Positions 16,308 to 62,877 of a stretch of DNA of 64,000 nt are shown in pieces. This DNA is from Azolla caroliniana (Eukaryota > Plantae > Polypodiophyta), in NCBI GenBank assembly GCA_043228905.1, contig JBHGNT010000002.1, forward strand, positions 13,082,001 through 13,146,000. Reading direction: 5' to 3'. Both the position numbers and the translations under genes were made by a program. Within the stretch, counting starts at the first letter, position 1. Each line of letters starts with the position of its first letter. The notes beneath the pieces were generated by a model, which saw only the letters and a list, made by a program, of their open reading frames with translations, did no database searches and was not told the origin of the DNA.

Positions 16308-19109
16308 TCACTCCGGCATGGGGTGTCTTTCCAGCCCGATCCTCTTTCGGCATGCGTCCAGCTTGTCGGATGTCAGCACTTTGGTCAGCATATCTGACCC
16401 GTTCTCGGCCGTGTGAATCTTCGCTAGTGCGAACTCCTGGTCATCTACCCTTTCCCGGATCCAGTGATACCTCCGCTGGATATGCTTCATCCGAGAATGG
16501 TAGGCCGCATTCTTAGCAAGGTGGATGGCACTTTGACTGTCGCAGTAGAGTCGGTATTCCTCTTGTCGGATACCGAGCTCTCCGATGAAGTCCTTCATCC
16601 TTAATATTTCCTTGCCGGCTTCTACAGCCGCCATGTACTCCGCCTCTGTGGTTGATAATGCAACCGTCTTCTGCAGCCTCGACTGCCATGAAACAGCTCC
16701 CCCTGCATATGTCATCACATACCCGGATGTAGACCGGCTGGTATCCACATCAGCCGACATGTCCGAATCGGTGAAACCGTCCAGTTGAGGTTTCCCGGAG
16801 CCGAATCGGAGACACATATTTGAAGTGCCCTTCAAATACCGGAGTATCCACTTGACCGCATTCCAATGCTCCTTGCCGGGATTGCTCATAAACCAGCTCA
16901 CCACTCCGACTGCGTATCCAATGTCCGGTTGGGTACAAACCATTGCGTACATCAAGCTCCCGACGGCAGAGGCATATGGGATCTTCATCATATCTGCCTT
17001 CTCTCCTTTTGTCTTCGGGCTTTGCTTGCCGGACAACTTGCAGTTTGCCGGAAGTGTCGATCCGACCGATTTTGCATCTGACATGTTGAACCGGTGAAGC
17101 ACCTTTGTCACATACTTCTCCTGTGACAGCCATAGTTGCTTCACTGACCGGTCCCGAATGATGTGCATCCCCAACATTTGTCTTGCCGGACCCAGGTCTT
17201 TCATTGAGAAGGTCCGGTTGAGAGCCTTCTTCAGCATCCGAATTTTGCCTTTGTCTCGTCCGACGATCAACATGTCATCCACGTACAGGAGGAGTATCAG
17301 GAAGTCCCCTCCTTCGAACTTCTTCACAAACACGCAGTGATCGGCCTGCGTCTTGTGGTACCCTTGATCGGTCATGAAGGAGTCAAACTTCCGGTACCAT
17401 TGCCGGGGAGCCTGCTTCAGTCCGTACAGGCTCTTCTTCAACCGGCATACCAGGTGCTCCTTCCCTTTCTCCACAAATCCTTCCGGTTGCTGCATGTAGA
17501 TCTCCTCTTCGAGGTCGCCGTGAAGGAATGCCATCTTCACGTCCAGCTGCTCTACCTCAAGATCCATGCTTGCTGCTATACTCAGCACCGTCCGGATGGA
17601 GGTCATCTTTACTACCGGGGCGAATATTTCGTCGAAGTCCACGCCCTTCTTCTGCTGGAACCCCTTCACCACGATCCTGGCTTTGTATCTCGGGGGGTTG
17701 CCGGCATCTCCCGGTTTCAACTTGAATACCCACTTGTTTCGGAGTGCCCGCTTTCCTTTCGGCAGCTCCACCAATTCGTACGTATGGTTCTCATGCAGGG
17801 AATCCATCTCATCCTGCATGGCACTTAACCATTTTCGGCTGTGGGTGTCAACCTTCGCTTCTTCGAAGCTTTCCGGCTCCCCCTCATCGGTTAGCAGGAC
17901 ATGCTCTGCATCCGGAAATCTCCGGGGCGCCCTTCTCTCTCTCAGAGGATATCTACGTCTTCGGGCTTCGGTAATCGGTTCCTCCATTTGCTCTTCATCC
18001 GAATCTGATTCGGGGTCTTGACCGGTTCCGGTCTCAGCTTCCTCTACTTCTTCTTCTGCCGGTTCGGTATCCTCACCGTAACCGGCTGGTTCTTCGAGTG
18101 CTAACCGGTCTCTTGCCGGTTGGGTCTGCTCATTGTAGAGTCTATCCTTACTGGTCGACTCGGAGTTCACTATCTTCTTCTCCGACTCCCAGTCGGCGAG
18201 CGTCTTGTCCTCCATGAAGATAATATCTCGACTCCGGAATACCTTCTTGTCGATCGGGTCCCACACTCGGTAGCCGAACTCATCGTCACCGTAACCGAGG
18301 AATATGCATGGCCGGGTCTTTGGATCTAGCTTTCCTCTCCGGTCCTGTGCTACATGCACGTACGCGAGACACCCGAACACCCTCAGATGCCGGTAGGACA
18401 CTTCCTTACCGGTCCATACTCTCTGTGGCGTGTCTCCGTCCAAGGGTACTGAGGGTGATTTGTTTATCACATATGTCGTCGTCGACAGTGCCTCAGCCCA
18501 AAACTTCTTGGGTAGTTTTGCATGCGCTAGCATACTCCGGACCCTCTCCATTATGGTCCGGTTCATCCTCTCGGCCAGTCCGTTTAGCTCCAGCGTCTTT
18601 GGCACGGTAAATTCGAGCCGGATTCCCTTCGAGCGGCAGTACTCCTCGAACTGCCCCCGGTACTCACCTCCGTTATCTGCTCGAACCGCCTTCAGCTTCC
18701 GGCCGGTTTCTCTTTCCACTCTCGCGTGGAGCTCTTTGAAGACGGATAACACCTGATCCTTTGTCTTCAGCGGTGTGGCCCACAGCTTCCGGCTGTGGTC
18801 ATCTATGAACGTCACGAAGTACTGCGCTCCGGCATGTGACTTCGTGTCTACTTGACAAACATCCGTATGCACCAACTCCAGTGGTGCATTACGTCTCATC
18901 GGTGGCCTTGGTCGGAAGGAGGTCCGGTTCTGCTTACCGGCCAGACAATCAGTGCACTTCTCTAAATGCACGTTCTTCACTGGGATGAGGTTGTCGTCTG
19001 CAAGCCTCTTCATCCCCTTCTCACTCATGTGACATAGCCTCTTGTGCCACAGCTCACCGGCAGTGTCGGAAGCCACGTTCACTTCTTCCGGACATAACCG
19101 GGTATTCAT
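16308..19109 (-). CDS. Copia D pol (GAG-pre-integrase, integrase, RT, RNase H); reading frame intact
   Basis: 933-aa ORF with LWHKRLCH...CTDC, D,D35E, YVDDML and FTDSD motifs. The frame continues with 22794-23641 (IVARAR|KVNT) when N1 is removed. Confidence 0.92.
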   Translation of the reverse strand: MNTRLCPEEVNVASDTAGELWHKRLCHMSEKGMKRLADDNLIPVKNVHLEKCTDCLAGKQNRTSFRPRPPMRRNAPLELVHTDVCQVDTKSHAGAQYFVTFIDDHSRKLWATPLKTKDQVLSVFKELHARVERETGRKLKAVRADNGGEYRGQFEEYCRSKGIRLEFTVPKTLELNGLAERMNRTIMERVRSMLAHAKLPKKFWAEALSTTTYVINKSPSVPLDGDTPQRVWTGKEVSYRHLRVFGCLAYVHVAQDRRGKLDPKTRPCIFLGYGDDEFGYRVWDPIDKKVFRSRDIIFMEDKTLADWESEKKIVNSESTSKDRLYNEQTQPARDRLALEEPAGYGEDTEPAEEEVEEAETGTGQDPESDSDEEQMEEPITEARRRRYPLRERRAPRRFPDAEHVLLTDEGEPESFEEAKVDTHSRKWLSAMQDEMDSLHENHTYELVELPKGKRALRNKWVFKLKPGDAGNPPRYKARIVVKGFQQKKGVDFDEIFAPVVKMTSIRTVLSIAASMDLEVEQLDVKMAFLHGDLEEEIYMQQPEGFVEKGKEHLVCRLKKSLYGLKQAPRQWYRKFDSFMTDQGYHKTQADHCVFVKKFEGGDFLILLLYVDDMLIVGRDKGKIRMLKKALNRTFSMKDLGPARQMLGMHIIRDRSVKQLWLSQEKYVTKVLHRFNMSDAKSVGSTLPANCKLSGKQSPKTKGEKADMMKIPYASAVGSLMYAMVCTQPDIGYAVGVVSWFMSNPGKEHWNAVKWILRYLKGTSNMCLRFGSGKPQLDGFTDSDMSADVDTSRSTSGYVMTYAGGAVSWQSRLQKTVALSTTEAEYMAAVEAGKEILRMKDFIGELGIRQEEYRLYCDSQSAIHLAKNAAYHSRMKHIQRRYHWIRERVDDQEFALAKIHTAENGSDMLTKVLTSDKLDACRKRIGLERHPMPE

Positions 19110-19239
19110 CAGGTACAGTGTGTTTACCTTCCGGTGTCGTAGTGTATTTCGTACACTACGTGAAAAAGTAAAAATAATATAACCGATTTAATTACATATA
19201 AATAAATAAAATAATATATCAAGATATTTATCACGTGCA

Positions 19240-19308
19240 TAGGGCAAGATTCGAACCTTGTACCTCCACGTAACCAAACCTCAACTTTACCATTATGCTA
19301 CCTTATCT
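19240..19308 (-). ncRNA. tRNA-like Pol III cassette in N-family LTR (also ~22109-22177 and ~59805-59873)
   Basis: The minus strand reads GATAAGG TAGCATAATGG (box A) ...GGAGGTACAA GGTTCGAATC (box B) TTGCCCTA, with a 32-nt A-B spacer and T-runs ~30 nt downstream. Confidence 0.6.
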
Positions 19309-19862
19309 TTAGTGTTTTATAAATAGATTTAATAACTATAAGTGCTTTATTTGCGCCTACCTTTATTAAAAGGTAAATCATGTATTTTTAGAGTGCGTGA
19401 ATATTTTATAGGAAAACGCAAGCAACTAAAAAGTGACTCATGCACATCTAGCGTGCATGAGCACTATATTTAGCAAATAAAAGCAAGGATTAGAAAAGCA
19501 TCACATGCACATTTAGTGTGCATGAACATATTAGAAAAAAAGCATGTAGCTATGCTTAGTCTCTCCCATCACTATATAAGGATGGGGAGCACATTGTAGT
19601 TTTTGTTGATTATTTTTCTATAATGATCAATCAATCTAAAATATTCGTGGGATTCACGAATTTGCTAAAATAATTTTCTCTTACTACCTAAATATTGACT
19701 AAATATACTAAACTCGTGGGATTCACGAGATTTTTATCTTATAACTCTTTATACCTATTCTTTACTAGCCTTATTTGTATTTTTCTTTTCTCCTAGTCCA
19801 AAACCCCGGTGGTTCCCACCTGACTCACGCAAACGATCCGGAGCCGAAAGGCACGACACAGT

Positions 19863-19880
19863 TGGTGAACCCGATGTGAA
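19863..19880 (+). promoter_or_regulatory. Primer-binding site complementary to tRNA-Trp (also 60429-60446)
   Basis: TGGTGAACCCGATGTGAA versus the complement of the plant tRNA-Trp(CCA) 3' end as I recall it (TGGTGAACCCGACGTGAA): 17/18, and the mismatch allows G:U. Confidence 0.8.
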
Positions 19881-19896
19881 GGCGGGTGGCAAGGAG

Positions 19897-20931
19897 ATGG
19901 AGAATCAACAAGATGCAATGAGCATAACGATGATTATGATGTTCGAGCGGATGCTACAAGAACAACGAGTGATGTCGGAGATCACGGGGGCAGTAAAGCG
20001 GCTCGTGCGACGAAACGGGGAATTCAACGGTAAGGGTGTGTCACGCTACCTACGTGAATATAAGGCGGAGATGATGCAATATCGGATACCGGAAGGATTG
20101 CAAGTGATATCCTTTAGTCGGGTGGCCTCGGACGAACTACAAGAGAGAATCCACAAGATACAACAACAAAACTCGACATGGGAGTCCTTTGAAGAAGCTT
20201 TACGGGAGACATATGACTATGAGAGATGGACGGGACGAGATCGACGAGAATTCGACGAATGGGTGGCGTCGGAGAAGACTCACCGAAGTGCAACGCAAGC
20301 GTTCCTAGAGTTCGAGCATCGTTTTGCTCGACTCTCGGAGCGGGAACGAAGATTGGTGGGAGAAGATAAAGTCTTAATGTTCGTAAGATCGATCGATCGG
20401 AAAGAAAGGATGGACATTGGGATCGAACTCGAAGATGATGACGGTGCGAATGGTCTTACCGAAGATTGGGCCGAAGTCCAAAGGGTATGCCGGAGACATG
20501 ATGAGAGGAAGATGAGAATCTTGTCAACGACATGGCCAATGAAGGATGGTCGATTGAAGACAAACGATGGAGCCGATATGAAGGCCGAAATACAACATGA
20601 TGGTGTGACGGAAGAGGGTGTAAAACAAGCTACCCTCTTGTCTTGCGAAAGAACGACGGCGAAGGATAAGGCCGATAACCCAAGTGTAGAAGAAGATTTC
20701 GGAATACAAGTGTCCGAAACATCGGGTGAAAAAGGGGTAAGCATAATTGATGTTTGCATAATTGATGCAGTGAAAGAGAGCAAGGAGGACTTGATTGAGG
20801 AGGTCGCCACGAAAGATGACATCGAATCGAAGGTGGCTGGCTATGGACGAATCAACGACGGATGGCCATATCGAGACTTCCCCACCACTGATTCTAGAGA
20901 CTCCGGCGGTTGCGTTCGAAAGGCAACGTGA
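19897..20931 (+). CDS. Gag-like (capsid) protein of N1
   Basis: First ATG at 19897. GEFNGKGVSRYLREY...TWESFEEALRETY resembles Gypsy gag capsid. A near-identical ORF starts at 60463. Confidence 0.65.
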   Translation: MENQQDAMSITMIMMFERMLQEQRVMSEITGAVKRLVRRNGEFNGKGVSRYLREYKAEMMQYRIPEGLQVISFSRVASDELQERIHKIQQQNSTWESFEEALRETYDYERWTGRDRREFDEWVASEKTHRSATQAFLEFEHRFARLSERERRLVGEDKVLMFVRSIDRKERMDIGIELEDDDGANGLTEDWAEVQRVCRRHDERKMRILSTTWPMKDGRLKTNDGADMKAEIQHDGVTEEGVKQATLLSCERTTAKDKADNPSVEEDFGIQVSETSGEKGVSIIDVCIIDAVKESKEDLIEEVATKDDIESKVAGYGRINDGWPYRDFPTTDSRDSGGCVRKAT

Positions 20932-21300
20932 GACCGAAGAGACGGAAGGTGGCGGAGAGAAAACAAAGGTCGAAGTCGATGCATACGACGGAGAGATAGC
21001 CGAGAATATGGCTATGGGTGAAACAATGGAGGATGATAATACCGAGGATTCCTACCCACTAATCCTAGAGACTCCGGCGGTTGCGATCGAAAGGCAACGT
21101 GAGACCGAAGAGACGGAAGGTGGCGGAGAGAAATCAAAGGTTGAAGCTGATGCGTATGACGGAGAGACAACCGAGAATATGGCTATGGGTGAAACAACGG
21201 AGGATGATAATACCGAGGATTCCTACCCACTAATTCTAGAGACTTCGGCGGTTGTGTCCGAGAACCAACGTGAAACCGGAGAGACGGGAGGTGGCAGCAA
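20885..21300 (+). repeat. 171-bp tandem repeat (~2.5 copies) encoding a 57-aa acidic unit
   Basis: PLILETPAVA.ERQRETEETEGGGEK.KVE.DAYDGE..ENMAMGET.EDDNTEDSY is repeated in ORF 20795-21454. Confidence 0.9.
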
Positions 21301-22793
21301 GAAAGGTAAAGTCGGAAGCCGGTTCGGATGGAAGGTGATCCGGACGGGATTCCGATCCGAAAGAAAGCCGAACCGGGCGAATGAGGATTCGGCCGAAAGA
21401 CGACCCAAAAGAAAGCCGACCCGAAAAGGGGTCGACTCGGTCAAAACCGATTGACTGAGTCTGACTTGGCCGAACGCGAATATGGATGGAGGCCGACCTA
21501 GCCGAAAGCCGATCGGACGAGACCGATCCAAAAAGAAGCTAATCCGACTCAACCGGAGGTTGGACCGGTCGAGGCTGGTGAAAACGAGGAAAAGAAAGCC
21601 AACCGAAACCGAAACCGATAGATCGAAACCGGGGCGGAAGGAGACCGACTCAATCGAAACCGAACAACCGATTCCGATTCGGCCGAATATGAATCCGATC
21701 GGACGCCGATCAAACCGAAAGTCGATCGGACGAGAGCGATCCGGAAAAAAGTCAAGGTTGATGAAGACAACAAAGAGGCCAGTAAAAGACACTACCACGA
21801 ATGACAAGGGCCAAGAATATGACGAGAGAGAACAAAGAATATGGTGGATCGGATGGCGACAATGGTTCGGGTGGAAAGAATGGGTCTACTCAAAATGGAG
21901 AGACAAAGTTAACATAGCGGGACAAACGGAGGATGAAGGGGAGACAACGAGCATTGGCAACTTCGGCACATACCGGAGGATGTGCGGGTTCGGAGGGGGC
22001 GAGTGTCGTAGTGTATTTCGTACACTACGTGAAAAAGTAAAAATAATATAACCGATTTAATTACATATAAATAAATAAAATAATATATCAAGATATTTAT
22101 CACGTGCATAGGGCAAGATTCGAACCTTGTACCTCCACGTAGCCAAACCTCAACTTTACCATTATGCTACCTTATCTTTAGTGTTCTATAAATAGATTTA
22201 ATAACTATAAGTGCTTTATTTGCGCCTACCTTTATTAAAAGGTAAATCATGTATTTTTAGAGTGCGTGAATATTTTATAGGAAAACGCAAGCAACTAAAA
22301 AGTGACTCATGCACATCTAGCGTGCATGAGCACTATATTTAGCAAATAAAAGCAAGGATTAGAAAAGCATCACATGCACATTTAGTGTGCATGAACATAT
22401 GAGAAAAAGCATGTAGCTATGCTTAGTCTCTCCCATCACTACATAAGGATGGGGAGCACAATGTAATAGGTGTGTGAAATATTTGGAAATTGGATATATT
22501 TCCGAAAACACCAACCGATTAATATAATCGTGGGATTCACGAAAATAATATAATCTATACTTGTGGGATTCACAAGTTTCTTATATCTTTCTTTCAATCT
22601 AAATACATATTCTTATCTAAATATTGATTAATCGATTACAATACACTCGTGGGATTCACGAGATTCTTATCTTATAACTCTTTATACCTATTCTTTACTA
22701 GCCTTATTTGTATTCTTCTTTCTCCTAGTCCAAAACCTCGGCGGTTCCCACCCGACTCACGCAACGATCCGGAGCCGAAAGGCACGACACCGG

Positions 22794-23641
22794 GCCCGAG
22801 CCACAATCAGGCTCCCTTTGCTGAACTTCATGACACCGTTCTGGATGCTACCCGTGTAGCCTTCATCATCTAGCCGACCGGCTGATATCAGGTTCAGACG
22901 AACTTCCGGAACGTGTCGGACATCTTTCAACAGCAGTTTGCATCCGGTTGGTGTTGTCAGCCACACGTCTCCTATGCCGACAATTCGACATGTTCCTTCA
23001 TTCCCCATCCGGACACAGCCGTGATCACCGGCTGAGTAGGATGAGAAGCATTTCCGGTCCGGGGTAAGGTGGAACGACGCTCCGGAGTTTACCACCCAGG
23101 TCATCTCATCGCCGACATGGTTTATCTCACTCTCATCGGTGATGAGCATCAACTCCTCTTCACTTGCCGCAATTGCCGTCGTTCCCTTCCGGTCCGGCCC
23201 CCTCCGGTCTTTACCGTTCCGGTCTGTACCGTTTTGGTTCGGGGTTTGCTTCGAATCGGTACTGTCGGTTTCCTTGTCTTTACGGAAATGCCGACAGTTC
23301 TTTTGGAAGTGTCCCGGCTTGCCGCAATAGAAGCAAGTAGGCCTCCCCCTTGACTTTGATCGTGTCCCCGACTTCTCCCGGTTCTGGGGACTACGGTTTC
23401 TTTGTCTTCCGCGTTCCGATTCGGTAAGGAGCGCTTTGGAGTCGGAGCTCGTATCTTTGTCTTTCCGACGAGCCTCCTCATCTAGCAAGCTCGACTTTCC
23501 TCTTGCTAGGGATAGCCGTTTTCCTTCCGGCCCGGCGTTGCCCAAAGTAACAACCAACGTCTCCCAGCTATCCGGGAGGGAACCGAGCAGGAGTAGCGCT
23601 AGGACCTCATCGGCAAGAGGTACTTCCAATGACGTTGACTT
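22794..23641 (-). pseudogene. Copia D gag C-terminus, zinc knuckle and protease
   Basis: Motifs LLLGSLPDSWETLV, CFYCGKPGHFQKNC and WVVNSGASFHL (catalytic D appears as N). Confidence 0.88.
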
Positions 23642-24205
23642 CCACAAGCTGCAAACTGTCACTATGCAGAAATATACAACAGTGAGATCACCGAGGCAAC
23701 GACCTCGTGCTCTCAGATCTTCGCCACAGGCGGCGGTTATAACAGAGGCAACGACCTCGTCTCTCTCTCTCTCTCTCTCTCTCCGTCTCTCTATACAGTT
23801 ACGCGCTCTGATTTCTTCTTGCACACAACAAGAAAGGAAAAATAACATGAATGACAACAACTAACTAAAAGTTTGCCCTAAGTCATATTTATACTAATAT
23901 GACTTTTCGGCTATTTACAAAAATGTAGCCTTGATGGGCTTCATCCGGCTCTCCGCAGTCGGGCCTACACCATCCGACTCTCCGCAGTCGGGGTACTCCT
24001 CATCCGGCTTTCCGCAGTCGGGCCTTCACCATTCGACTCTCCGCAGTCGGGTACTCCTCATCCGGTTCATACCGGGCCTACACCATCCGACTCTCCGAAG
24101 TCGGGTTCTCCCCATCCGGTTCATACCGTTTCAACACTGTTCGTTTGTTCGTCGGCACTGTTCTTCTCCCTTCCCATCCGGAGGGACCTGTCTACCAACA
24201 CTTCG

Positions 24206-25247: not shown

Positions 25248-26380
25248 GCCTGGAGGAACAAGAGCTGTGAGCCCGAGGATCCCGAAGAGCCTCAAGTTGA
25301 GCTTGAGGGGAGTGTTGAGAGACAAGCTCAACATCAGCCGGATCGGCTGAAGAAGCCGAGGACCGGATCGGTTGGGACCGATTGGTTAGGCCGAGTGCAT
25401 AAACTGAGAGGCCGTTAGGAAAGATATTCCGAGAGGAATATATTTGGGAGTTAGTGTAGGAGCTCTTGATGAGCATTGAAGTACTATCAGTACTTCGGTC
25501 AGTCCTTCTAGGACTTGTATAAAAGTGCTCACTGAGCACTTCTTATGTACAGACTTGAGTATTATTATTGAATATAGTTTTTTGTGTCTACTCTCTCTTT
25601 GTCTCTCCCGCGTATACCGTGTAAGCCCAAGCTCTCCATTGAACCTGAGTTTCCTTCCTCTGTTCTGTCTTCATACCTGCTTCCGCACGCTACTTTCTAC
25701 ACAATATTGCCCTAGTTATATTTATACTTATATAACTTTGGGGCTATTTACAAATATGACCTCAATGGTCACGTTTGAACATATTTACTAATATGTTCCT
25801 ATTTATTGGTTCATACTAGATCCGACCGAACTCCTTCCACAATCATCCGATACGGTATTCCTATATCTTCTAGACCCATCTGGTCCGGTTCATTGCTTCG
25901 TGTTACTGGCCGGCAAAGGAGTCTAGAGTGTGAAACGAAGGAGTTATTTAGGAAGGGTTGTAAGTGAGCTATTAGTGTGAACGGACGGACCGGAATCGGT
26001 ATGCCGTTCCGGATCCGGACCGATCCCGAATAGGTGCGGATGGCACCGTTTTGTACTACAAACCGGAAACCTATTTAAATGCCTGGATACAATGTAATGA
26101 GCAGCGGATAATTAATGAAGCTTAGTGTTTTTATCTCTCTGTGTTAATTGCCGTTCTGCATTCATTGTTATATCTTACGCGTGTGATTATTAAGGACGAT
26201 CTTGCTAAGTAACCTAATTAAGTCAGATTAATCGTTGAGCCTACTCCTCTTGCTGTAACACCCCTTTGGTGAAGTGTCTTCCATAGACACCCTGTGTTAG
26301 GCCATTGTCCGGCCCTAAGAGTTAACACAGTTTTTGGCGACCACGATTCCTGTTTTTGCAGCGAACGACGGCATGAATGG

Positions 26381-29300
26381 ATGACTAGATCAACGCACGA
26401 CCTGGTTATAGATCGAACTCAACGCCTTGCCGAAAGGCAAAGGAGACGTGAGGCTTTCCAACAAGCGACGCAGGAAATTACAGCGGATCGCTCGTTTTCC
26501 AACGTAATCTGGAGAGTAGCGGAGGAGTCCCTCCGGTTACAGCAAACATCGCACCCGGACGATGACAACAGCCTAATAAGCCTTCGGGAAACCAAATCCC
26601 TTCTCCAGGCGTTGGCAAGCGGAGAAGGCGAAGCAAAAGCCTTTTCAGCGTATGAATCAGATTCCGAAGGGGGATACAACATGCACACGAACTACCGTAG
26701 CAGCAACGACACCCCGGGTGGACCGGAGGACGAAGGATCGGACACCTTACCGACACCGGAACCGGAAGTGCTAAGGCTAGAACCTCCAGAACCAGAAGCA
26801 GAGGAAGAGCGACCTCCGACACCAGAAGTCGAGGAGGAGAGGCCTCCGTCACCAAAAGAAGAGGAAAGACCACCGACGCCGGAGAAAATCCAGGAACGAC
26901 CACCAACACCACTAGCCCGCGCACCGATACCGGACGACGACATGCCTTTCCAGTACTCCAAGTATAGAGATGATCTAGACACGGAAGCTCATGTTCACGC
27001 CTTTGAACAGACATGGGAAGCAAACCATGTATCCCAACGATTGACCCCGGAGGAAGAGGAACGCTCTAAGATAGTGGAATTTGGCGTCACATTGGAAGGA
27101 CCGGCAGCAAGATGGCGCCGGACGTAGGACCCGTCTACCATCACCACCTTTGCATATTTAAAAGCTAAATTCTTGCATTTTTTCCAAAAGGAGGTGGACC
27201 AGACAGTAATGGTGGGCTTGTTTTATACCATCCGACAGGAGGCAGGGGAGAGCATTCCCCAGTTTGTCATTCGGTTTCAACGGATGCATAGTCAGCTTGT
27301 CCGCGCACCCCTGGAGGAGGAATTACGGACTATATTCCTAAATGCGCTCCAGGAACCCCTACGTACGGTTTGTACGGTAATTGACTTCCGCGCAAGTACC
27401 ATCGACCAGGTCATTGACCGGGTGAGAGAGATGGAAAAGACAAGATCCTGGCTCACACTGGGAGCACTCCAATGGGCGTTACCGTCCGATGAAGACCTCC
27501 GGTTTCGGCAAGCAATACAGTGCACAACCTGCTTGAATTCCGAACACTCGGCACTAGAATGCATGATGAGGACGCAATGTGTAATCTGTCAATCCAAGGG
27601 CCATACGACGGATAGGTGCGAGTATAATCTATTGAACCGGCAAGCACCGCCCGTCCGACAAATAGAGCCACACAGCAGCCGGGATGAAGAAGAGGAAAGC
27701 TGGCGGCGAATGGACCGATACCGACCGGCACAGGATGTCCGGTATGGCAATCGACGGGAGAATGATGTCCGGTACGGTGATCGGCGGGATAACTACGACC
27801 GGGACGATAGATATGATCGGTACCGGGATTACAATAGGCGATACGAACATTACGACTGGGAGCACTCCCCCGGGTATCGTCAACAACGGGAGGAATACGG
27901 CAGATATAACGACCAACCTCGTCAAGAGTACCGCAATAAGAAGAACTATAACAAAAAATGGCATTTCAAAAAAGGAGGCCACCCACGGATCCGGAACAAG
28001 GAGCTTCATGCAGCCAACCGACCCAAAACCCCGCGCTTACCACAGGACCTGCCCCGGGTACAAAAAACAATGCCGAATCCAGCAATACCCGGAAAGCCTA
28101 CTGCTACTACTACCGACAGGAAGGCCATTATAGTAATCAATGCCCGGCGAAGAGCTATGACAAACGACCGACAGTAAATATGGTAGTCCCTGAAGTGGCA
28201 GATCTGCAGCAGGTGACCACAAGGTCGAAGGGCATGGCCAAGGAATGGGAGACGCAGGAGACCATCCGGAAGCAAGTGACGGAATGGGTGAAGAAAGCAA
28301 ACGAGCAAAACGTAACAGACTTAGAGCGGCAAAAGGATAACACCATAGGGCTTGCCGGCGGTAGTCACTCTGAGAACAAGACATGGCAGGCGTTGCAAGA
28401 ATGCCACGCTGCAACTAGGAAGACTCCTACAGCTGGTGCCGAGATTCACGGAAGGACTGAAGACAACCATGACGGAAGGGGAACCATCACCGGCACCGGT
28501 ACTCTTCTCGAATCCGGAGGAGGGACCAACGGTGGTGGACACCAACAGTCCGGTAATTACTGCCATTGTAAAAGGGAAAGAACTCCCCGGCACAGTAATA
28601 GACGGAGGCTCCGGTGTGAATGTAATAAGCCTCTGGACGTGTGATGCCCTGGGAATCCACGAGTGGGAGCCGTGTCCGTTCTGGTTACGGATGGCCAATA
28701 CAAGCTTAGTGCGGACGACAAGATTAATACAAAAATTAGAAGTCACCATTGGCGGTCATACATTTCACATCTCAGCAGTAGTGCTACAATTACAGGCACA
28801 AGGCACGTACCCGCTATTGCTGGGGCGGCCGTGGTTAAAAACGACACATATTAAACAGAATTGGAGGAAAAATATAATTACCTTCCGGCGAGGAAAAGCC
28901 AAGGTACGTGTACCAACACAGCCAAGGATGAGCACTAGCAAGGAATGTACACCGTTGTATGCAGAGTGCGTCAACATGCTAGAAGAGTTAGCTGACGAAG
29001 AAGAAGCACAGTACTTGCAGGAAAACCCGAAGATCGTACCCCTCTTCGAAATTGACATTGCCGAAGCAGTAGCACCATACTTACCGCAGCCAGAAGAGAC
29101 TGAAGCAGAACCGGATAAGGACGCAATCTGAGAGTTACGACAAGCCCAAGAAGCGTTGGAACGGGAAATGGTTGTTTCACAGCGCGTAAAAGCGTCGCAA
29201 CTTGAAGAGGTGAACCTAGGGACCACGGACGAAGCAAAACTGGTTGTTTCACAGCGCGTAAAAGCGTCGCAACTTGAAGAGGTGAACCTAGGGACCACGG

Positions 29301-32000
29301 ACGAAGCAAAACTGGTGCACATCGCCAAGGAGATGAGGTCCGAAGACAAAACGGCGATGATCACACTTCTCACGGAATTTCGCGACGTGTTTGCCTGGTC
29401 ATACGAAGACATGCGAGGGCTCGACCCTCAGTTATACCAGCATCAGATTCACTTGAGCAAGGACGCAAAACCAGTGGCACAAAGACGGTACTGGATGAAT
29501 CCAAATTATGCCGCCAAAGTCAAGGAGGAAATTGATAAACTGCTAAGAGTTGGCTTTATCCGTCCGGTAAAGAAAGCGACATGGCTGAGCCCGATCGTAG
29601 TCGTACCGAAGAAGAACGGAAAAATTCGAGTTTGTGTGGACTACTGGAAACTCAATGCGGCTACAGTAACGGATGCGTTTCCACTTTCGTTCACAGATGG
29701 AGTGTTGGATGCCGTCGCCGGCCATGAGGTCTATAGCTTTCTAGACCGATTCAGCGGGTATAATCAGATCCGGATGCACCCCGACGACCAAGAGAAAATG
29801 GCTTTCGTCACCGAATGGGGGGTGTTTGTGGCCATGGTGATGATGTTCGGACTCAAAACGGCACCGGCAATATTTCAACGAATCATCATGGAAATCTTTG
29901 GTGAATATATCCCGGCTTTTATGCAGGTTTTCCTTGACGATTTCGCCGTCTATTGTCTATAGCCGGGAAGAGGATCATTTGTAGCACCTCCGTCTTTGTC
30001 TAGAAAAGTGTAGAGCGTACCGGCTAAGCTTGAATCCGGCGAAGTGTGTATTTGGCGTGTCCAGTGGAACCCTACTAGGACATATTGTGAGCAAGGAAGG
30101 CATTGTAGTCAATTCGGACAAAGTGAAAGCCATATTAGAAGCACCGACGCCGGCAACGGCAAAGGCATTGAACCGGTTCTTAGGCCAGATCCGGTGGCAC
30201 AGCCGGATGCTCCGATACTTGGCCGACCTGGCTACACCGTTGCATGCCGCACTACATCGAACACCATTCCAGTGGACCGACACCGAGGATAGGGCGTATA
30301 GGGCCCTCAAGGTACTATTGTCGTAAGCACCGGTAGTGCAGCCACCGGATTGGAGTAAAGAATTTCATGTGTTCGTGGACGCCTCTGACATCGTAATCGG
30401 AAGCGCACTGATGTAGCTTACGGAGCCAAAGTGGTACCGGCCAGTTTACTATGCCAGCCGAAAGCTATCCCAAGCGGAACGGAACTACTGTACCACGGAA
30501 CGAGAAGCTCTAGGGATGATCTACAGTGTGACAAAGTTTCAGCATTATTTATTGGGAAGAAGTTTTCCTTCCATGTAGATCATTCGGCACTCCTCTACCT
30601 GGGGTCCAAGGCGTCACTCACCGGTAAGTTGGCCCGGTGGACCTTACTATTACAGGAATTCAAGTTCGAAATATTCCACCAACCCGGTATACAGCATGCC
30701 GTAGCGGATTATTTAAGCTGACTATCGGACGAGTTTCCGGATGCGGAGCTGTTTCGAGTCACTACGGAAACGGCAACAGATGAGACGGTGGCACAGGAAG
30801 ACAAGTGGCTCACAAATATGCACCAGTTTCTGAGCATAGGACTGCCTCCGGAGGAGGAGACCCGAGACGAAAGGAAACGCCTGGCGGTGCAAAGCCGACA
30901 TTTCTGCTCACTACGAGACACACTTTACCACAAGGGCGCAGACGGCATATGGAGACGGGTTGTGCACAGCGATGAAAAGGACCTCATACTGAGGGAAGCC
31001 CACTGCGGAGTTGCCGGAGGTCACTATGCCGGAGATGCGACGGCCAAGAAAATATGGCAAAGTGGCCTATGGTGGCCAACTACATTAAGAGATGTTGTAT
31101 GGTACGCAAAAGAATGTGACCTATGCCAGAGAATGGGCCAGCCAACGGAGCAAGCTCGGATGCCACACCAGCCTGTACTACCACTCGAACCATTCTAGAA
31201 GTGGGGGTTGGACTTTGTTGGACCGTTCAAATCACCGGCAATGAGAACGGGTAATCGATACGTCATCGTCGCAACGGATTATTGCACGAAATGGGTGGAG
31301 GCCAAAGCCTTAAGAGACAACACCGCTACGTCAATGGAAAAATTTCTATATGAATACATCTGGTGCCGTTATGGTTGCCCAATCGAATTAATAAGCGACC
31401 AAGGGGGGCACTTTCTCGGCCAAGTAGTTGAAAGCCTGACGACATTCTATGTCGTTGTCCATAAACGGAGCACACCCTACTATCCGCAAGCAAACGGGTT
31501 AGCTGAGTCGACGAACAAAACGCTCCAGAATATCCTCCAGAAGATCGTCAACGAAAACCGAACGGATTGGGATACCAAGCTACATAGTGCGCTTTGGGCA
31601 TACCGGACAACATACAAAACGAGCATCCGAACAACACCGTTCCGATTAGCATTCGGACTAGAGGCGGTCATGTCGGTGGAATTCCAAGTACCAAGCTAAC
31701 GGATCCAGCTACGGGAACGGCTAAACAAGGAGTTGGAGGCAATACGGTTAATAGCGCTGTGTGAACTCGAGGAACAACGACTCGCAAGCATCCTGCACTT
31801 AGAATTGGAACAACGGTGATGGAAAGCATTTGTCGACCGGCACAGGAAAGGAAATGAAAAAATGTTCGAAATCGGCAACCCGGTGTTAGTATTTCAGACC
31901 CGGATGGGCAAGATGCCGGGTAAACTACAGCTAAGATGGACCGGCCCGTATTGGCTGACACGTGAGTATAATGGGTCCTACCAGTGCAGAAATGGCCAAA
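26381..32000 (+). pseudogene. Gypsy H gag-pol
   Basis: Three CCHC-type knuckles, VIDGGSGVN (protease), FLDDF (RT), RNase H and HHCC + D,D35E integrase. Multiple stops and frameshifts. No chromodomain seen. Confidence 0.9.
29170..29313 (+). repeat. 72-bp in-frame tandem duplication upstream of the Gypsy H RT
   Basis: VVSQRVKASQLEEVNLGTTDEAKL occurs twice. Confidence 0.92.
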
Positions 32001-32981
32001 ATGGCCTTAACGGCAACATAGATCCAAGCACCGGTGACTTCAGTATGTGTACAAAATAAAGAAACAGACCAACCTGTACATATTAATAAGACCCCGACAA
32101 TGGAAACCGTTCCAGAGAGAGATGCGGCGCAAGCCCAGGAGCTTGCGGAATTGAGAGATGAACTTGCCGCACAAGAAGCGCTAAGGAGCCGTGAACGGGA
32201 ATTGAAGACAACTGCCGAAGCAGAATTAAAGAAGACTGCTGAGAACCTCCGCTGGGCAGAGGAGAGCCTCTAGAAAGGCCATCAAGCGTACGACCGGCTA
32301 AGGGAGGAAAAAGACAAAGTGCTGCAAGAAAAGGACAAGCTGCGGAAGACGGCGAAAACGGAAATTGAACGGCTAAAGGAGGAGCTCCGCCAGCAAAAGG
32401 ACCGCGAGGACCGGGCCCGTCAACAGATCAACGTACGGCTCAAGTAAAAGACAGATGATTTTGAGCACTTGCATCGGGACTACAAACAGCTGGAAACGGA
32501 GCATAAGGAATGGATGGCCGAGCTCCGGCAGGAAGTTGATCAGGCCGCAACGGCGCTCGCCGACGAACGAACGGAAAATACAAGACAGTTGGACGAGGCG
32601 GAGAAGGTCCGGATGGAGCTCCAAAGGAAGCAGCAGGAAGAAAGGGAGAGAGCGTCAACGGTATTACAAAAATTACAAAGCACATATCAAGGGCAATTGA
32701 CGCATTACAGGGAGCAGGCGGAAGACAACATCATAATCATCAAGCAATTGAAGGAGGAACGACAAGCTGTGGAGATCAAATCGTAGATGGGAACGGGCCG
32801 GATTCAGTGCATCCTCCGGGCATGGCTGAATCAAACAAAACGCTTGATTGACGAAAGCTCCGTAAGATGGTGGACAAAGTGGGCACAAAATACGGCGGAA
32901 CTCCAATTGCTATGGGCAGACGTGGAAAACTGGCGGAAGGAAGGAGATGATTGTTACACGTTGACTTCCGAGGACTTCACC

Positions 32982-33272
32982 TATCATGATATGGCAAGAC
33001 TCGAACCCATGACCTTATGCTACATGGGTCGAGCTCTTGACCATTAAAATATACATTGTAATACGTAGAATATTATTTTCATTTATGTTTTATTATAGAA
33101 AATTGATGTATATTCCAGATTTCTCTAGAACATTCTAGAAACTTCAGGAGTATTCCTTAGAACACTATAAAAGGAGGCACGAGGCATTATTTTGAACCAA
33201 ATCGGTTCAACACCAGTCTTAAGCCTCCTAGCTACTACTGTACATTCTCTTCACATAATATATATCTTTTCT

Positions 33273-33309
<37 letters not shown>

Positions 33310-36300: not shown

Positions 36301-38649
36301 AGTTTGACGCCGCCGAAATCAACTACGAAATTCATGATAAAGAGCTATTGGCTATAATGGACTCTTTTATGCAATGGAGGCATTTTCTAGAGGGATCTTC
36401 TCATCAAGTCACTGTATTCAGTGACCACAAAAACCTCGCCTATTTTCAAGACGCTCGTGTGTTAAATCGAATTCAAGCTCGGTGGGCCCATTTTCTCACG
36501 CGTTTCGACTTCAAGATTACATATCGACCTGGGAAACATCAAGGGAAAGCAGATGCATTATCACGACGTTCGTACCTAGCACCGCGTCCCGGCGAGCCAA
36601 CTTTCGATAACCAAAAGCAAGTAATCTTGGGACCGGCACAATTGCAAGCAACACAAGTCTTTGGCATGCCCATGGATTCCCACGTTATCGATATAATACA
36701 TGTGGACCTGAAGACAGATGCTTTCGCCCAAGCTATACTAGCACAAATTGATCCCTCTCGAGCGTCGTGTTCACAGCCGCAACCACCAGGTACGGACTAT
36801 CGGCAATTCAAATACCATGATGGATTACACTTCTTTAAAGAACTTTTGTATGTTCCTAATGGTTCTTCCCGCCTTCAAGTAGTACAAAACTGTCATGACA
36901 CATATACAGCTGGGCATTTTGGTAGTACTAAAACATTAGATTTAGTACAACGATCATTCTAGTGGCCCCATATGCGACAATTTGTCGAAGATTTTGTTCG
37001 GACTTGTGACACATGCTGCAGAGCGAAAATGCCAAGGCATCATCCATATGGTTCATTAGAACCATTACCAATTCCAAGCAAGCCGTGGCAATCCATTGCT
37101 CTAGACTTCATCACAGATCTTCCAGTCTCTAAGGGGTTCAATGCGATTCTAACAGTGGTAGATCGATATACGAAGATGGCTCATTTTTTGCCATGTACTA
37201 AGGAAATCTCCAGTGAAGACACCGCCGAAATTGTCATGCGTGAAGTATGTCGGCATCATGGACTTCCCGATAGTATCGTCAGCGACCGTGGACCCCAGTT
37301 CGTGTCAAAATTCTGGAAGCACCTTTTTAAAATGCTCAAGGTCACTTGTAACCTCTCCTCTGGCTACCACCCACAAACCAACGGCCAAGCCGAACGGACA
37401 AATCAAACGCTGGAGCAGTACCTGCAGTGCTTTCTCAGCTATCATCAGGATGACTGGGCAGATATTCTCCACTTCGCCGAATTTGCCTATAATAACTCTA
37501 TCCATGCATCGACTAAAGTTATGCCATTTTATGCTGATACGGGATGTTAGCCCTGGTGGTGTGTACTTCAAACACTGGAGCAGTACCTGCGGTGCTTTCT
37601 CAGCTATCATCAGGATGACTGGGCAAATATTCTCCACTTCGCCGAATTTGCCTATAATAACTCTATCCATGCATCGACTAAAGTTACGCCATTTTATGCT
37701 TATACGGGATGTCAGCCCCGGTGGTGTGTACTTGAAACCCCAGAGGTGTCCACAAATCCTTGCGCGGAGGATCGTTTGGAGCGGTTACGCAAGATACAAG
37801 CAGATTTATCTACTCATCTCCAACAAGCTCAGCAAACACACAAGGTTTATGTGGATCGTCATCGACTCCCATCCAGTTTTAACATTGGAGATCGGGTATG
37901 GCTACTCCGACGACACATCAAGACTACTCGCCCATGTGAGAAGTTGGATTATCGGCGATTAGGTCCTTTCTGTATCATAGGAAAGATTAATGATGTCGCT
38001 TTTCGTCTCGATCTACCTCCACAACTTCGGATACATCCGGTGTTTCATAGTTCTCTCCTTTAACCCTATCAAGAGAGCACCATCCCAGGATGTATTACAC
38101 AGCCTCCACCCCCGATTGAGCTTGAAGATGGACCTGAGTACGAGGTTACCGCCATCCTTGATTCCAAGATTGTTCGCAACAAGCTCTACTATCTAGTCGA
38201 TTGGCTAGGATATAGTCCTAGTGAGCGTACTTGGGAACCGATAGAGAATGTCACCAATGCTCGTGCACTTCTTGAAGACTTCCATCATCAATATCCAGAC
38301 AAACCGGGTCCTCAATCCAAAACGACTCGTTACACTCTTCGTTTTAAAGGGAGGATAGCGTCATGATATGGCAAGACTCAAACCCATGACCTTATGCTAC
38401 ATGGGTTGAGCTCTTGACCATTAGACTATACATTGTAATATGTAGAATATTATTTTCATTTATGTTTTATTATAGAAAATTGATGTATATTCCAGATTTC
38501 TCTAGAACATTCTAGAAACTTTAGGAGTATTCCTTAGAACACTATAAAAGGAGGCACGAGGCATTATTTCGAACCAAATCGGTTCAACGCCAGTCTTAAG
38601 CCTCCTAGCTACTACTGTACATTCTCTTCACATAATATATATCTTTTCT

Positions 38650-38693
<44 letters not shown>

Positions 38694-59220: not shown

Positions 59221-61691
59221 GTCCCCCGATTTTCAATCCGGAGAGAACAGCTCGACGGTATGCCGACTGAAAAAGTCCCTCTATGGACTAAAACAAGCCT
59301 CTGCACGTGGAACACGAAGATCACGTAGCGCCTGCATCACTGGGTTTCCGATGTCCAAATCAGACTCTTCATTGTTCGTCCGGTAAGGTTGACATGGACC
59401 GGTTAGTATTTTACTTTATGTTTATGATTTAGTCATCGTCATCACTGACCTAGATGAAATTGGCCAAGTAAAGTCCCAGCTCGTGGCATCATTCTACATG
59501 AAGGAACTAGGGAACCTTCATTACTTCCTAGGGATCGAAGGGATCTGCACCCCCGAAGGCATACTGATCAGCCAACGACATTACGTGTTGCATATGCTCT
59601 TCAAGTTTGAGATGGCAGACTGTAAGTCTATCTCAACTCCTTTGGACAGAAATGTCAAGCTTCGCCGAGATTCGGGAAAGGTGTGCGACCCGACACGGTG
59701 TCGTAGTGTATTTCGTACACTACGTGAAAAAGTAAAAATAATATAACTGATTTAATTACATATAAATAAGTACAATAAGAATATCAAGATATTTATCACG
59801 TGCATAGGGCAAGATTCGAACCTTGTACCTCCACGTAGCCAAATCTCAGCTTTACCATTATGCTACCTTATCTTTAGTGTTCTATAAATAGATTTAATAA
59901 CTATAAGTGCTTTATTTGCGCCTACCTTTATTAAAAGGTAAATCATGTATTTTTAGAGTGCGTGAATATTTTATAGAAAAAACGCAAGCGACTAAAAAGT
60001 GACTCATGCACATCTAGCGTGCATGAGCACTATATTTAGCAAATAAAAGCAAGGATTAGAAAAGCATCACATGCACATTTAGTGTGCATGAACATATTAG
60101 AAAAAAAGCATGTAGCTATGCTTAGTCTCTCCCATCACTATATAAGGATGGGGAGCACATTGTAGTTTTTGTTGATTATTTTTCTATAATGATCAATCAA
60201 TCTAAAATATTCGTGGGATTCACGAATTTGCTAAAATAATTTTCTCTTACTACCTAAATATTGACTAAATATACTAAACTCGTGGGATTCACGAGATTTT
60301 TATCTTATAACTCTTTATACCTATTCTTTACTAGCCTTATTTGTATTTTTCTTTTCTCCTAGTCCAAAACCCCGGTGGTTCCCACCTGACTCACGCAAAC
60401 GATCCGGAGCCGAAAGGCACGACACAGTTGGTGAACCCGATGTGAAGGCGGGTGGCAAGGAGATGGAGAATCAACAAGATGCAATGAGCATAACGATGAT
60501 TATGATGTTCGAGCGGATGCTACAAGAACAACGAGTGATGTCGGAGATCACGGGGGCAGTAAAGCGGCTCGTGCGACGAAACGGGGAATTCAACGGTAAG
60601 GGTGTGTCACGCTACCTACGTGAATATAAGGCGGAGATGATGCAATATCGGATACCGGAAGGATTGCAAGTGATATCCTTTAGTCGGGTGGCCTCGGACG
60701 AACTACAAGAGAGAATCCACAAGATACAACAACAAAACTCGACATGGGAGTCCTTTGAAGAAGCTTTACGGGACGCATATGACTATGAGAGATGGACGGG
60801 ACGAGATCGACGAGAATTCGACGAATGGGTGACGTCGGAGAAGACTCACCGAAGTGCAACGCAAGCGTTCCTAGAGTTCGAGCATCGTTTTGCTCGACTC
60901 TCGGAGCGGGAACGAAGATTGGTGGGAGGAGATAAAGTCTTAATGTTCGTAAGATCGATCGATCGAAAAGAAAGGATGGACATTGGGATCGAACTCGAAG
61001 ATGATGATGGTGCAAATGGTCTTACCGAAGATTGGGCCGAAGTCCAAAGGGTATGCCGGAGACATGATGAGAGGAAGATGAGAATCTTGTCAACGACATG
61101 GCCGATGAAGGATGGTCGATTGAAGACAAACGATCCGGAGCCGAAAGGCACGACAACGGTTCCGAAAGATTGTCCACAGCCTAATTTATTTGATGATGAC
61201 TCGGCCAGATCCCAGTTACCCAGTCGGCCTAATCAGTCAATTTATGTTGTAGCCCACGACCGAACACCTTCAGTGCACGCAAAGGATATTGCGCTATGTC
61301 CGTGGCACTAAGGATGGGGTGTTGCTATATCGGGTAGGAGTAGCCGAGTAGCTAGTCCATTATATGGATGCCAATTGGGCCGAAAATGCCGGCAATTGCA
61401 GATCAACATCTGGATATGCATCTTCATTGGGAAGTGCAGTGATCACATGGAGCAGTATAAAACAGTCAATAGTGGTGTATAATAGACTGGTTGCGTAAAC
61501 TGGGTACGCAACGAGAGGCCATAGTGGTGTATAATAGAGGTTTGGAATAGAGTTTTCTGTGTTCTGCTCTCTCTGTCTCTCCCGCGTACGTTGTGCTGAT
61601 TAAGCTTTCCATTAAACCTTCCTTGTCTCTTTGTCTTTTGTTTGTTGTTACCCGGTTGTATCTGTTAAGCTTCCGCACGTATTCTTTTACA
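59221..61691 (+). mobile_element. Copia F remnant (C-related): RT/RNase H pieces 59221-59698 and 61160-~61465, partial 3' LTR ending 61691
   Basis: VCRLKKSLYGLKQA and LHYFLGIE motifs; CDPTR|FRKIV across N2. LTR end gcttccgcacgtattcttttaca resembles the Copia C LTR end. Confidence 0.8.
59699..61155 (+). mobile_element. N2: deleted N-family copy (5' LTR 59699-60424, PBS, gag 5' part, last ~27 bp of the 3' LTR); 4-bp TSD ACGG
   Basis: acgg at 59695-59698 and 61156-61159. The deletion joins internal aaacgat(ggagccga) to LTR aacgat(ccggagccga). Confidence 0.92.
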
Positions 61692-62871: not shown

Positions 62872-62877
62872 GTGTCC

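What the first reader, a model, noticed from the sequence alone, without database searches (positions are those of the whole stretch)
19135..22789. Gag-only LTR element with tRNA-Trp priming and 4-bp NCGG target duplications
Seen: N1 and N2 have TGTCGT...ACGACA ends, a 17/18-nt tRNA-Trp PBS and only a gag-like ORF; N1 also has a PPT and acidic and basic repeat ORFs. Both TSDs are 4 bp (CCGG, ACGG), whereas every other LTR-element TSD in the window is 5 bp, and both copies sit in Copia pol. Established: most plant LTR elements make 5-bp TSDs and Met priming is the most common; gag-only TR-GAG elements exist. Inference: N is a parasite of an unseen autonomous lineage whose integrase prefers CGG sites. 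My recollection that Ginger1/Gmr1-type integrases make GC-rich 4-bp TSDs needs checking. A CG/CHG preference would steer it into other TEs.
Basis: partly seen in the sequence, partly recalled or inferred. Interest (0 to 1): 0.72.

Follow-up and report, generated by a model that had tools for sequence, protein, structure and literature searches.

The report
CG-targeting parasite retrotransposon with hybrid capsid
This is one of about 800 insertions of a plant jumping gene that encodes only a capsid-type protein, lands almost only on CG dinucleotides, and likely borrows its copying enzymes from a full-size relative in the same genome, from whose lineage it likely took its end repeats and half of its capsid gene.

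Summary
The target rule is NCGN, not NCGG: 54 of 54 perfect 4-bp duplications and 765 of 829 non-internal LTR starts genome-wide have a central CG. N1's three ORF pieces are one broken ~680-codon ORF, whole in 22 of 35 relatives. The 4-bp NCGN/tRNA-Trp signature is published for Phygy Ty3/gypsy elements (PMC6317226). The 'unseen' helper is in the same genome: 7.3 kb, gag-PR plus RT-RH-INT, with the same LTR end, PBS, PPT and NCGN sites. It is not Gmr1/Ginger-type. New here: the protein folds as a two-lobed capsid, lacks the zinc knuckle, carries an acidic/basic/tryptophan-rich tail, and is under purifying selection (capsid C-lobe dN/dS 0.13-0.30). It is a chimera: LTR and N-lobe come from the helper clade, C-lobe and tail from an old pol-less lineage that includes a second family, NB. 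The switch lies next to the lobe hinge. CG preference alone explains nesting in other TEs. Closest precedent: wheat Quinta/Cereba. Expression and co-assembly are untested. Earlier scan notes did not report this family.

The parts
19131..19134 (+). Left target-site duplication CCGG (4 bp)
19135..19858 (+). N1 5' LTR (724 bp); 80-81% identical over its full length to LTRs of autonomous helper-clade sublineages X2/X5; 3' end shared with helper A
19247..19300 (-). tRNA-like A-box/B-box pair in U3, antisense; similar segment in helper-clade LTRs; not a tRNA gene; weak
   Evidence: negative
19863..19880 (+). Primer-binding site, 17/18 to host tRNA-Trp(CCA), after a 4-nt CAGT spacer as in helper A (18/18)
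19897..20202 (+). Gag codons 1-102: N-terminal helix plus capsid N-lobe, from the helper clade (67% aa to A, 29% to NB)
20203..20511 (+). Gag codons 103-205: capsid C-lobe of the pol-less lineage (36% aa to A, 68% to NB; dN/dS 0.13-0.30)
20512..21454 (+). Acidic, predicted disordered region in place of the helper's zinc knuckle and protease; three 171-bp repeats at 20838-21350; N1 is frameshifted here and has a stop at 21452-21454
21455..22051 (+). Basic region and conserved Trp-rich motif (RIWWIGWxxWFGWKEW, about 21836-21890); same ORF as gag in intact copies
21992..22003 (+). Polypurine tract; the ~77 bp around it are 91% identical to helper A
22004..22789 (+). N1 3' LTR (786 bp); upstream part nearly identical to the 5' LTR, downstream part of another subfamily type
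22790..22793 (+). Right target-site duplication CCGG
16308..23860 (-). Host Copia gag-pol, interrupted by N1 between protease and pre-integrase
59699..61155 (+). N2: 5' LTR (59699-60424), PBS, 5' gag, microhomology deletion to the last ~27 nt of the LTR; TSD ACGG; inside a decayed Copia RT

Best explanation
N is a high-copy LTR retrotransposon family without pol that inserts at CG dinucleotides and is likely copied and integrated by the enzymes of a Phygy-like Ty3/gypsy helper in the same genome, while its own capsid-fold protein likely joins the helper's particles. Shown: shared LTR termini, tRNA-Trp PBS, PPT and 4-bp NCGN duplications with helper A; no pol; one long ORF in most copies; purifying selection on the capsid part; a mosaic gag whose LTR-to-N-lobe block groups with the helper clade and whose C-lobe and tail group with an older pol-less lineage. 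Predicted: two-lobed capsid fold, disordered tail. Inferred: N RNA is primed by tRNA-Trp, copied by the helper RT from the shared PBS/PPT and inserted by the helper integrase, which reads a CG core and cuts with a 4-bp stagger. The mosaic arose by template switching between co-packaged helper and satellite RNAs near codon 100. The helper-type N-lobe lets N Gag co-assemble with helper Gag/Gag-Pol, and the basic tail replaces the zinc knuckle as RNA binder. Because TE-coding DNA is CG-rich here, the CG rule alone makes N nest in other TEs.
For: TSD: 54 of 62 N outer-end pairs are perfect 4-bp, 0 are 5- or 6-bp, 54 of 54 have CG; helper 19 of 22, 19 of 19 with CG. Genome-wide: 1306 N LTR starts, 477 after a PPT, 765 after CGN; 528 A-type starts. 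Helper found through P0030 (51% to N gag); domains RT-RH-INT, DUF4100, protease. Single ORF in 22 of 35 copies, and no pol apart from a 38-aa match to the pol end at the PPT in 3 of 35. Fold: residues 38-108 match the Arc N-lobe (Z 8.2, rmsd 2.0, 69 aligned) and 112-207 the Arc C-lobe (Z 8.6, rmsd 2.9, 81 aligned); ranks 1-32 are all capsid-type. Mosaic: informative sites favour A 101:22 in codons 1-102 and NB 127:28 in codons 103-205, Fisher p=6e-28; N-lobe tree N+A 96*, C-lobe tree N+NB 99*, N+A rejected p-AU 0.0004. dN/dS for the C-lobe between pol-less families 0.13-0.30; Trp motif pS 0.80 vs pN 0.22. Mosaic LTR pairs in N1, L068, L074, L172 and L176 show ongoing exchange.
Against: No expression or particle data. 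The N-lobe tree does not reject N+NB by topology (p-AU 0.34 and 0.40), so the swap rests on distances, site counts and the C-lobe test. NB, with no helper-type N-lobe and an LTR unlike the nine autonomous copies compared (one weak 79-bp match), also has young copies (15 of 18 LTR pairs at 99.5-100%), so a matched N-lobe is not required. The acidic region evolves near neutrality (dN/dS 0.57-0.91 within N and against NB L209). Several short copies have lost the C-lobe (L161, L170, L175) yet have near-identical LTRs. Foldseek gave no match at E<=0.001, and Z near 8 is modest for helical folds. N's LTR is closer to sublineages X2/X5 (80-81%) than to the young A copies (75%), so the exact donor and the current mobiliser may differ. 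Phygy membership by RT phylogeny was not testable.
Confidence: 0.8

Rival explanations
1. N is a pure passenger: its RNA is packaged in particles made only of helper Gag. Its own protein is kept for another job, for example RNA localisation or anti-silencing through the Trp/GW-rich motif. The N-lobe came along with the LTR by linkage.
For: NB thrives without a helper-type N-lobe. C-lobe-less short copies are young. LTR, PBS and N-lobe are contiguous, so one crossover moves all three. The Trp motif holds GW dipeptides and is conserved at protein level.
Against: Both capsid lobes keep their fold and are under purifying selection in pol-less families (N-lobe dN/dS 0.2-0.47, C-lobe 0.13-0.30), which suits an assembly role. 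The crossover lies close to the lobe hinge.
Confidence: 0.12
2. N Gag is a competitor or restriction factor like the Ty1 p22 capsid fragment: it poisons or redirects helper assembly so that N RNA is favoured, as virus satellites do.
For: N LTR starts outnumber A-type starts 1306 to 528. The C-lobe sits on a long stem (1.27) away from all helpers. This is compatible with the best explanation and differs only in who benefits.
Against: Young A copies are abundant and intact. No functional data. Only one helper sublineage was counted.
Confidence: 0.2
3. N is mobilised mainly by another Phygy-like family of this genome (Y or Z), not by the A/X clade.
For: Y and Z share the TGTCG start and the PPT-proximal motif, and N-like cores occur with Y2-type LTRs (L257, L264, L266).
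Against: N's LTR, LTR end, PBS spacer and N-lobe match only A/X. The Y and Z copies sampled are mostly broken, whereas A is young.
Confidence: 0.08
4. One reading: a parasite of an unseen lineage with a Ginger1/Gmr1-type integrase that prefers CGG or CHG.
For: Both window copies have CGG. Ginger1 makes 4-bp TSDs (PMC6839031, passages).
Against: The helper was found and is RT-RH-INT. G at TSD position 4 is 26 of 100 against 29.5% background.
Confidence: 0.02

Closest known systems
Phygy clade, non-chromovirus Ty3/gypsy (Neumann et al. 2019, PMC6317226; passages and supplementary file 3 read)
   Same: 4-bp TSD (100%, NCGN), tRNA-Trp PBS (81%), no extra domain or extra ORF, polyprotein filling the internal part. 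The helper found here has all of these.
   Different: Described from Physcomitrella as autonomous elements of 7.7-10.0 kb; helper A is 7.2-7.4 kb. Elements lacking the polyprotein were filtered out of that survey, so no pol-less partner is described there. RT placement against REXdb was not testable.
RLG_Quinta / RLG_Cereba of wheat (PMC11302176; abstract and passages read)
   Same: Non-autonomous partner with GAG plus a domain of unknown function, sharing LTR termini, PBS and PPT with the helper; old lineage; recombination involving gag; proposed to contribute GAG to particles.
   Different: Centromeric clade with chromatin targeting; the reported exchange concerns the gag region between Quinta A and B. 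Here the crossover is inside the capsid, between satellite and helper clade, the zinc knuckle is gone, and targeting is a CG sequence rule.
RLG_Sabrina/WHAM/Wilma and RLC_Angela of wheat (PMC9744471; passages read)
   Same: Semi-autonomous gag-encoding families that co-evolve with helpers; 'host switches' by LTR transfer are proposed.
   Different: Sabrina/WHAM keep the protease; Angela non-autonomous forms have degenerate coding sequence. No capsid-lobe swap in the passages seen.
TR-GAG elements (search listing and passages of PMC13570524 only; original description recalled, not read)
   Same: LTRs, PBS, PPT and a gag ORF without pol.
   Different: A structural label, not a lineage; here the helper and the target rule are identified.
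Helenus/TRIMp3 (PMC10886601; abstract and passages read)
   Same: tRNA-like A/B boxes inside the LTR.
   Different: Helenus elements are 0.3-1.3 kb non-coding TRIMs. Here the boxes are antisense, degenerate and also in autonomous elements.

Membership tests
Phygy (helper A and its partner N) | 4-bp TSD with NCGN | tested here: met
   N 54/54 and A 19/19 perfect TSDs have CG; 765/829 genome-wide
Phygy (helper A and its partner N) | tRNA-Trp PBS | tested here: met
   A 18/18, N1 and N2 17/18 to the genome's tRNA-Trp
Phygy (helper A and its partner N) | Ty3/gypsy order RT-RH-INT, no chromodomain, no aRH, coding region fills the internal part | tested here: met
   Pfam scan of both helper ORFs; ORF map; RH-INT linker inspected
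Phygy (helper A and its partner N) | RT/RH/INT group with the REXdb Phygy clade | not testable with these tools
   No REXdb or labelled Phygy sequence available. Nearest named relatives are Riccia sorocarpa polyproteins (RT 76-78%) against 24-35% to the window's other Gypsy RTs. Filed as Phygy-like.
Phygy (helper A and its partner N) | Length 7656-9968 bp (descriptive range) | tested here: inconclusive
   A is 7.2-7.4 kb, slightly below the range of one species
TatI (4-bp TSD, tRNA-Trp) | Archaeal-type RNase H (aRH) domain | tested here: not met
   One RH only in Pfam; no room or motif between RH and INT
Gmr1 / Ginger1 | Integrase upstream of RT (Gmr1, recalled), or TIR DNA transposon without RT (Ginger1) | tested here: not met
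   Helper order RT-RH-INT within LTRs
Gag-encoding non-autonomous partner (Quinta / TR-GAG type) | LTRs, PBS, PPT, gag ORF, no RT/INT | tested here: met
Gag-encoding non-autonomous partner (Quinta / TR-GAG type) | LTR termini, PBS and PPT shared with an autonomous family of the same genome | tested here: met
Gag-encoding non-autonomous partner (Quinta / TR-GAG type) | Gag is expressed and enters particles | not testable with these tools
   No RNA holder listed
Helenus / TRIMp3 | tRNA-derived Pol III promoter in the LTR | tested here: inconclusive
   A/B boxes 43 nt apart, antisense; ARAGORN and Rfam negative; alignment to tRNA-Trp reached by 83 of 1000 shuffles; 3 similar hits in 200 kb of background, both strands
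Helenus / TRIMp3 | Short non-coding TRIM (<1.3 kb) | tested here: not met
   3.1-4.4 kb with a long ORF

The most novel reading that the evidence does not exclude
An ancient satellite lineage of Phygy-like retrotransposons hijacks helper particles the way virus satellites do. It keeps its own capsid C-lobe and a zinc-knuckle-free basic/Trp-rich tail that selects satellite RNA, and it re-tunes to whichever helper is active by swapping in that helper's LTR plus capsid N-lobe at the lobe hinge. This would be a natural domain-swap test of what sets particle compatibility between LTR elements, coupled to a strictly CG-reading integrase.
Probability: 0.3. Interest if true: 0.68.

Novelty: new variant of a known kind. 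Interest (0 to 1): 0.42.

Why it matters
How non-autonomous LTR elements pick and switch helpers is an open question that has been argued mostly from LTR similarity. This family gives a natural contrast in one genome: N (helper-type LTR and N-lobe, about 830 outer LTR starts), NB (own LTR and N-lobe, 141 LTR-PBS junctions) and an intact helper. It also gives the published Phygy NCGN rule hundreds of sites and a null test: CG reading alone accounts for nesting in TEs. A plant integrase with a near-absolute CG requirement is a direct test case for whether methylation attracts or blocks integration. The headline traits (4-bp CG TSD, Trp priming, gag-only design) are each already known, which caps the score.

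Tried and rejected
NCGG/CHG preference: rejected. Targeting beyond CG: none seen; flank GC, CpG density and TE-coding fraction equal random CG sites (p=0.25, 0.71, 0.64). Limits of that test: 20 hand-picked 10-kb background stretches, overlapping control flanks, and a TE protein library of 15 ORFs from this window and helper A. One-off deletion: rejected for N1; true for N2. Pfam found nothing in N proteins. ESM Atlas gave Retrotrans_gag at 0.89 for the full protein, a lead only, and no usable hit for the tail. The full-length fold was low-confidence (mean pLDDT 41.5) with no folded tail domain. Expression: no RNA holder listed; the two laid runs are contigs, one probably DNA, one of unknown kind, no evidence either way. 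In run X2 the internal region is covered and the mid-LTR is not, which proves nothing. A helper with NB's own LTR: none among 30 of 141 junction loci inspected or among 9 autonomous copies compared; the search was not exhaustive. Cluster look-up gave no accessions or organisms. The profile search returned 884 unnamed, mostly fragmentary hits, so the host range of the satellite is unknown. A complex prediction of N capsid with helper capsid was not obtained. Literature: searches listed no paper on a pol-less partner of Phygy; (Gmr1 + Ginger1 + TSD) found 0 papers. PMC7466625 has no occurrence of 'non-autonomous' or 'gag' in its main text. Neumann's per-element table was not read, and Repbase and subscription papers are not searched, so a library entry for such a family may exist. 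Rows dropped: NY_L266 from N-lobe trees (the hit was another element on the other strand); Y_L263 (47% filled) and P0064, P0137, P0151 (too short), which used 29 representative rows.
Full report
1. Observation. N1 spans 19135-22789: 5' LTR 19135-19858, a 4-nt spacer, PBS 19863-19880, internal region, PPT 21992-22003 and 3' LTR 22004-22789, flanked by CCGG on both sides. N2 (59699-61155, ACGG on both sides) has the same 5' LTR, PBS and 5' gag (98.5% identical), then jumps at a shared 'caaacgat' word to the last ~27 nt of the LTR. It has no PPT and is most likely a post-insertion deletion (inference). The PBS matches a tRNA-Trp(CCA) gene of the same genome at 17 of 18 nt. Both copies interrupt Copia pol. 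The four other window elements with a readable TSD have 5 bp. The host is a plant; an earlier scan note calls it likely a fern, which I did not test.

2. Family size and target rule. The genome holds 1306 exact N-type LTR starts. Of these, 477 follow a PPT and 765 follow CGN, so 765 of the 829 non-internal starts (92%) have the CG core. The other 64 were not inspected and may include PPT variants and decayed CpGs. Among 62 outer-end pairs in fetched loci, 54 are perfect 4-bp duplications, none are 5- or 6-bp, and all 54 have CG in the middle. Of the 8 misses, five end at an internal LTR end, two differ by one base and one is unmatched. Position 1 avoids T (3 of 54, 17 expected) and position 4 avoids A and favours T (34 of 54), so the rule is V-CG-B with ACGT commonest. 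NCGG was a two-sample accident. Of 85 upstream flanks, 82 have CG. Their GC and CpG content equal those of random CG sites, and 38 of 85 lie in TE-coding DNA against 250 of 600 random CG sites and 155 of 600 random positions. The CG rule thus steers N into TEs and no further targeting is needed to explain it, within the limits of a 200-kb background.

3. The helper. A search for longer relatives of N gag gave P0030, a gag-zinc knuckle-DUF4100-protease protein, 51% identical over residues 1-215. It found 63 scored copies in this genome. Twenty were fetched; most are 7.2-7.4 kb elements with the same LTR 3' end, the same CAGT+PBS and nearly the same PPT context as N, ORF1 of 712 codons and an overlapping ORF2 of 1241 codons with RT, RH and INT in that order, without chromodomain or aRH. 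Of 22 A-type end pairs, 19 have perfect 4-bp duplications, all with CG; two of the three misses are spurious starts. There are 528 A-type LTR starts, and further autonomous sublineages (X, pol 78-95% to A; Y and Z, about 55-63%). N's LTR is closest to X2/X5 (80-81% full length). Neumann et al. 2019 (PMC6317226; passages and supplementary file 3) give Phygy as 4-bp TSD in 100% with NCGN and tRNA-Trp in 81%, and call it the one plant lineage with a sequence preference. Phygy is also reported from a liverwort (PMC12885004, passages), and the helper RT is 76-78% identical to Riccia sorocarpa RTs. Without REXdb the helper is filed as Phygy-like.

4. The N protein. In 22 of 35 full-length copies one ORF runs from the start codon to a Trp-rich motif near the PPT (12 of 18 chosen by similarity to N1, 10 of 17 chosen by genome order), and none has pol. 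N1 itself is broken by a frameshift and a stop. Residues 1-208 fold with mean pLDDT 83.9 as two helical domains hinged at 109-112. The lobes match Arc/Ty3-type capsid N- and C-lobes (Foldseek's top ten are the same class but with E>0.001). There is no CCHC knuckle. An acidic stretch and then a strongly basic stretch follow, predicted disordered, ending in RIWWIGWxxWFGWKEW.

5. Mosaic origin and selection. A second pol-less family, NB, has an unrelated 645-bp LTR, the same PBS and NCGN duplications, and the same C-lobe, acidic repeats and Trp motif. N1 is 67% identical to A and 29% to NB over residues 1-102, and 36% and 68% over 103-205. Informative nucleotide sites switch from 101:22 to 28:127 near codon 100 (p=6e-28), in the last helix of the N-lobe. 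With Riccia outgroups, the N-lobe tree joins N with A/X (96*), the C-lobe tree joins N with NB (99*) on a long stem, and N+A is rejected for the C-lobe (p-AU 0.0004). N+NB is not rejected for the N-lobe (p-AU 0.40), so topology alone does not prove the swap (quick trees, short alignments). Between pol-less families the C-lobe has dN/dS 0.13-0.30 and the Trp motif has saturated synonymous but low non-synonymous change, while the acidic part is near neutral (Nei-Gojobori counts on pairs). The protein was therefore maintained after pol was lost.

6. Mechanism. Shown: shared cis signals, shared target rule, lack of pol, selection, mosaic structure. From established retrotransposon biology (my own knowledge): N RNA must enter a particle that holds helper RT and integrase, is primed by tRNA-Trp and the PPT, and is inserted by the integrase, whose 4-bp stagger yields the TSD; template switching between co-packaged RNAs makes mosaics. 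Inferred and untested: N Gag co-assembles with helper Gag, the helper-type N-lobe eases this, and the basic tail binds N RNA in place of the knuckle. NB and the C-lobe-less short copies show that neither lobe match is strictly required. The larger copy number of N may as well come from the captured LTR promoter.

7. Comparison and verdict. The design matches wheat Quinta/Cereba (GAG plus unknown domain, shared LTR ends, PBS and PPT, recombination in gag; PMC11302176, passages) and the semi-autonomous and host-switch cases in PMC9744471 (passages). PMC6911290 (passages) notes Phygy nesting in Tcn1 elements. Seven searches listed no report of a pol-less Phygy partner or of a capsid-lobe swap; Repbase, subscription papers and Neumann's per-element table were not seen. 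Earlier scan notes did not describe this family; one files nested elements of this genome under Phygy. Verdict: a real, young, high-copy satellite of a Phygy-like element. Its TSD and primer are known traits. The hybrid capsid under selection is the new and testable part. Interest 0.42.

Noticed in passing
window 25901-39725, esp. 39275-39298: A Gypsy element (5-bp TSD CTTCG) has no purine tract before its 3' LTR; the sequence there ends in a tRNA-like ...GGGCGTGCCA. It looks like the dual-tRNA-site lineage in earlier scan notes (e1-10598290 and others).
   Followed up: partly
window 19135-19858 vs 22004-22789; L068, L074, L172, L176: Five of 35 N elements compared have mosaic LTR pairs. In N1 the split before the TATA region holds 2 differences in 299 sites, the rest 31 substitutions and 74 gap columns. 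This fits intermolecular strand transfer or conversion; LTR dating of such copies is unsafe.
   Followed up: partly
window 19247-19300 (-); L081, L251-L258, L270: Antisense tRNA-like A-box/B-box pair in U3 of N and of autonomous A/X LTRs; a 23-bp piece is also shared with the otherwise unrelated NB LTR. A similar element occurs in background DNA.
   Followed up: partly
G000:C18:6694419-6709127; C9:7033000-7044181; C12:3269417-3278683; C5:13229547-13233081: Tandem LTR-internal-LTR arrays of N with up to six units.
   Followed up: no
L201-L220 (e.g. G000:C13:3981400-3987400): Second pol-less family NB: 3.5 kb, 645-bp LTR, Trp PBS, 14 of 18 resolved copies with perfect 4-bp CG duplications, 682-741-codon ORF in most; no helper with its LTR found.
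   Followed up: yes
L257, L264, L266: Decayed N-like cores attached to Y2-type LTRs, suggesting the satellite lineage paired with more than one helper clade.
   Followed up: partly
G000 genome-wide: 5561 exact matches to the 17-nt tRNA-Trp PBS, far more than N, NB and A explain, so further Trp-primed families exist. tRNA-Trp-like gene arrays lie at C8:17.80 Mb and C16:5.0 Mb.
   Followed up: no
L081 1361-3496 and 3376-7098: In the helper the protease is in ORF1 with gag, and RT-RH-INT is in an overlapping second frame; the gag frame is open from inside the LTR through the PBS.
   Followed up: no
window 204-2504 (-) and 61762-62877 (-): A PPR gene and a LINE endonuclease fragment flank the TE nest.
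   Followed up: no
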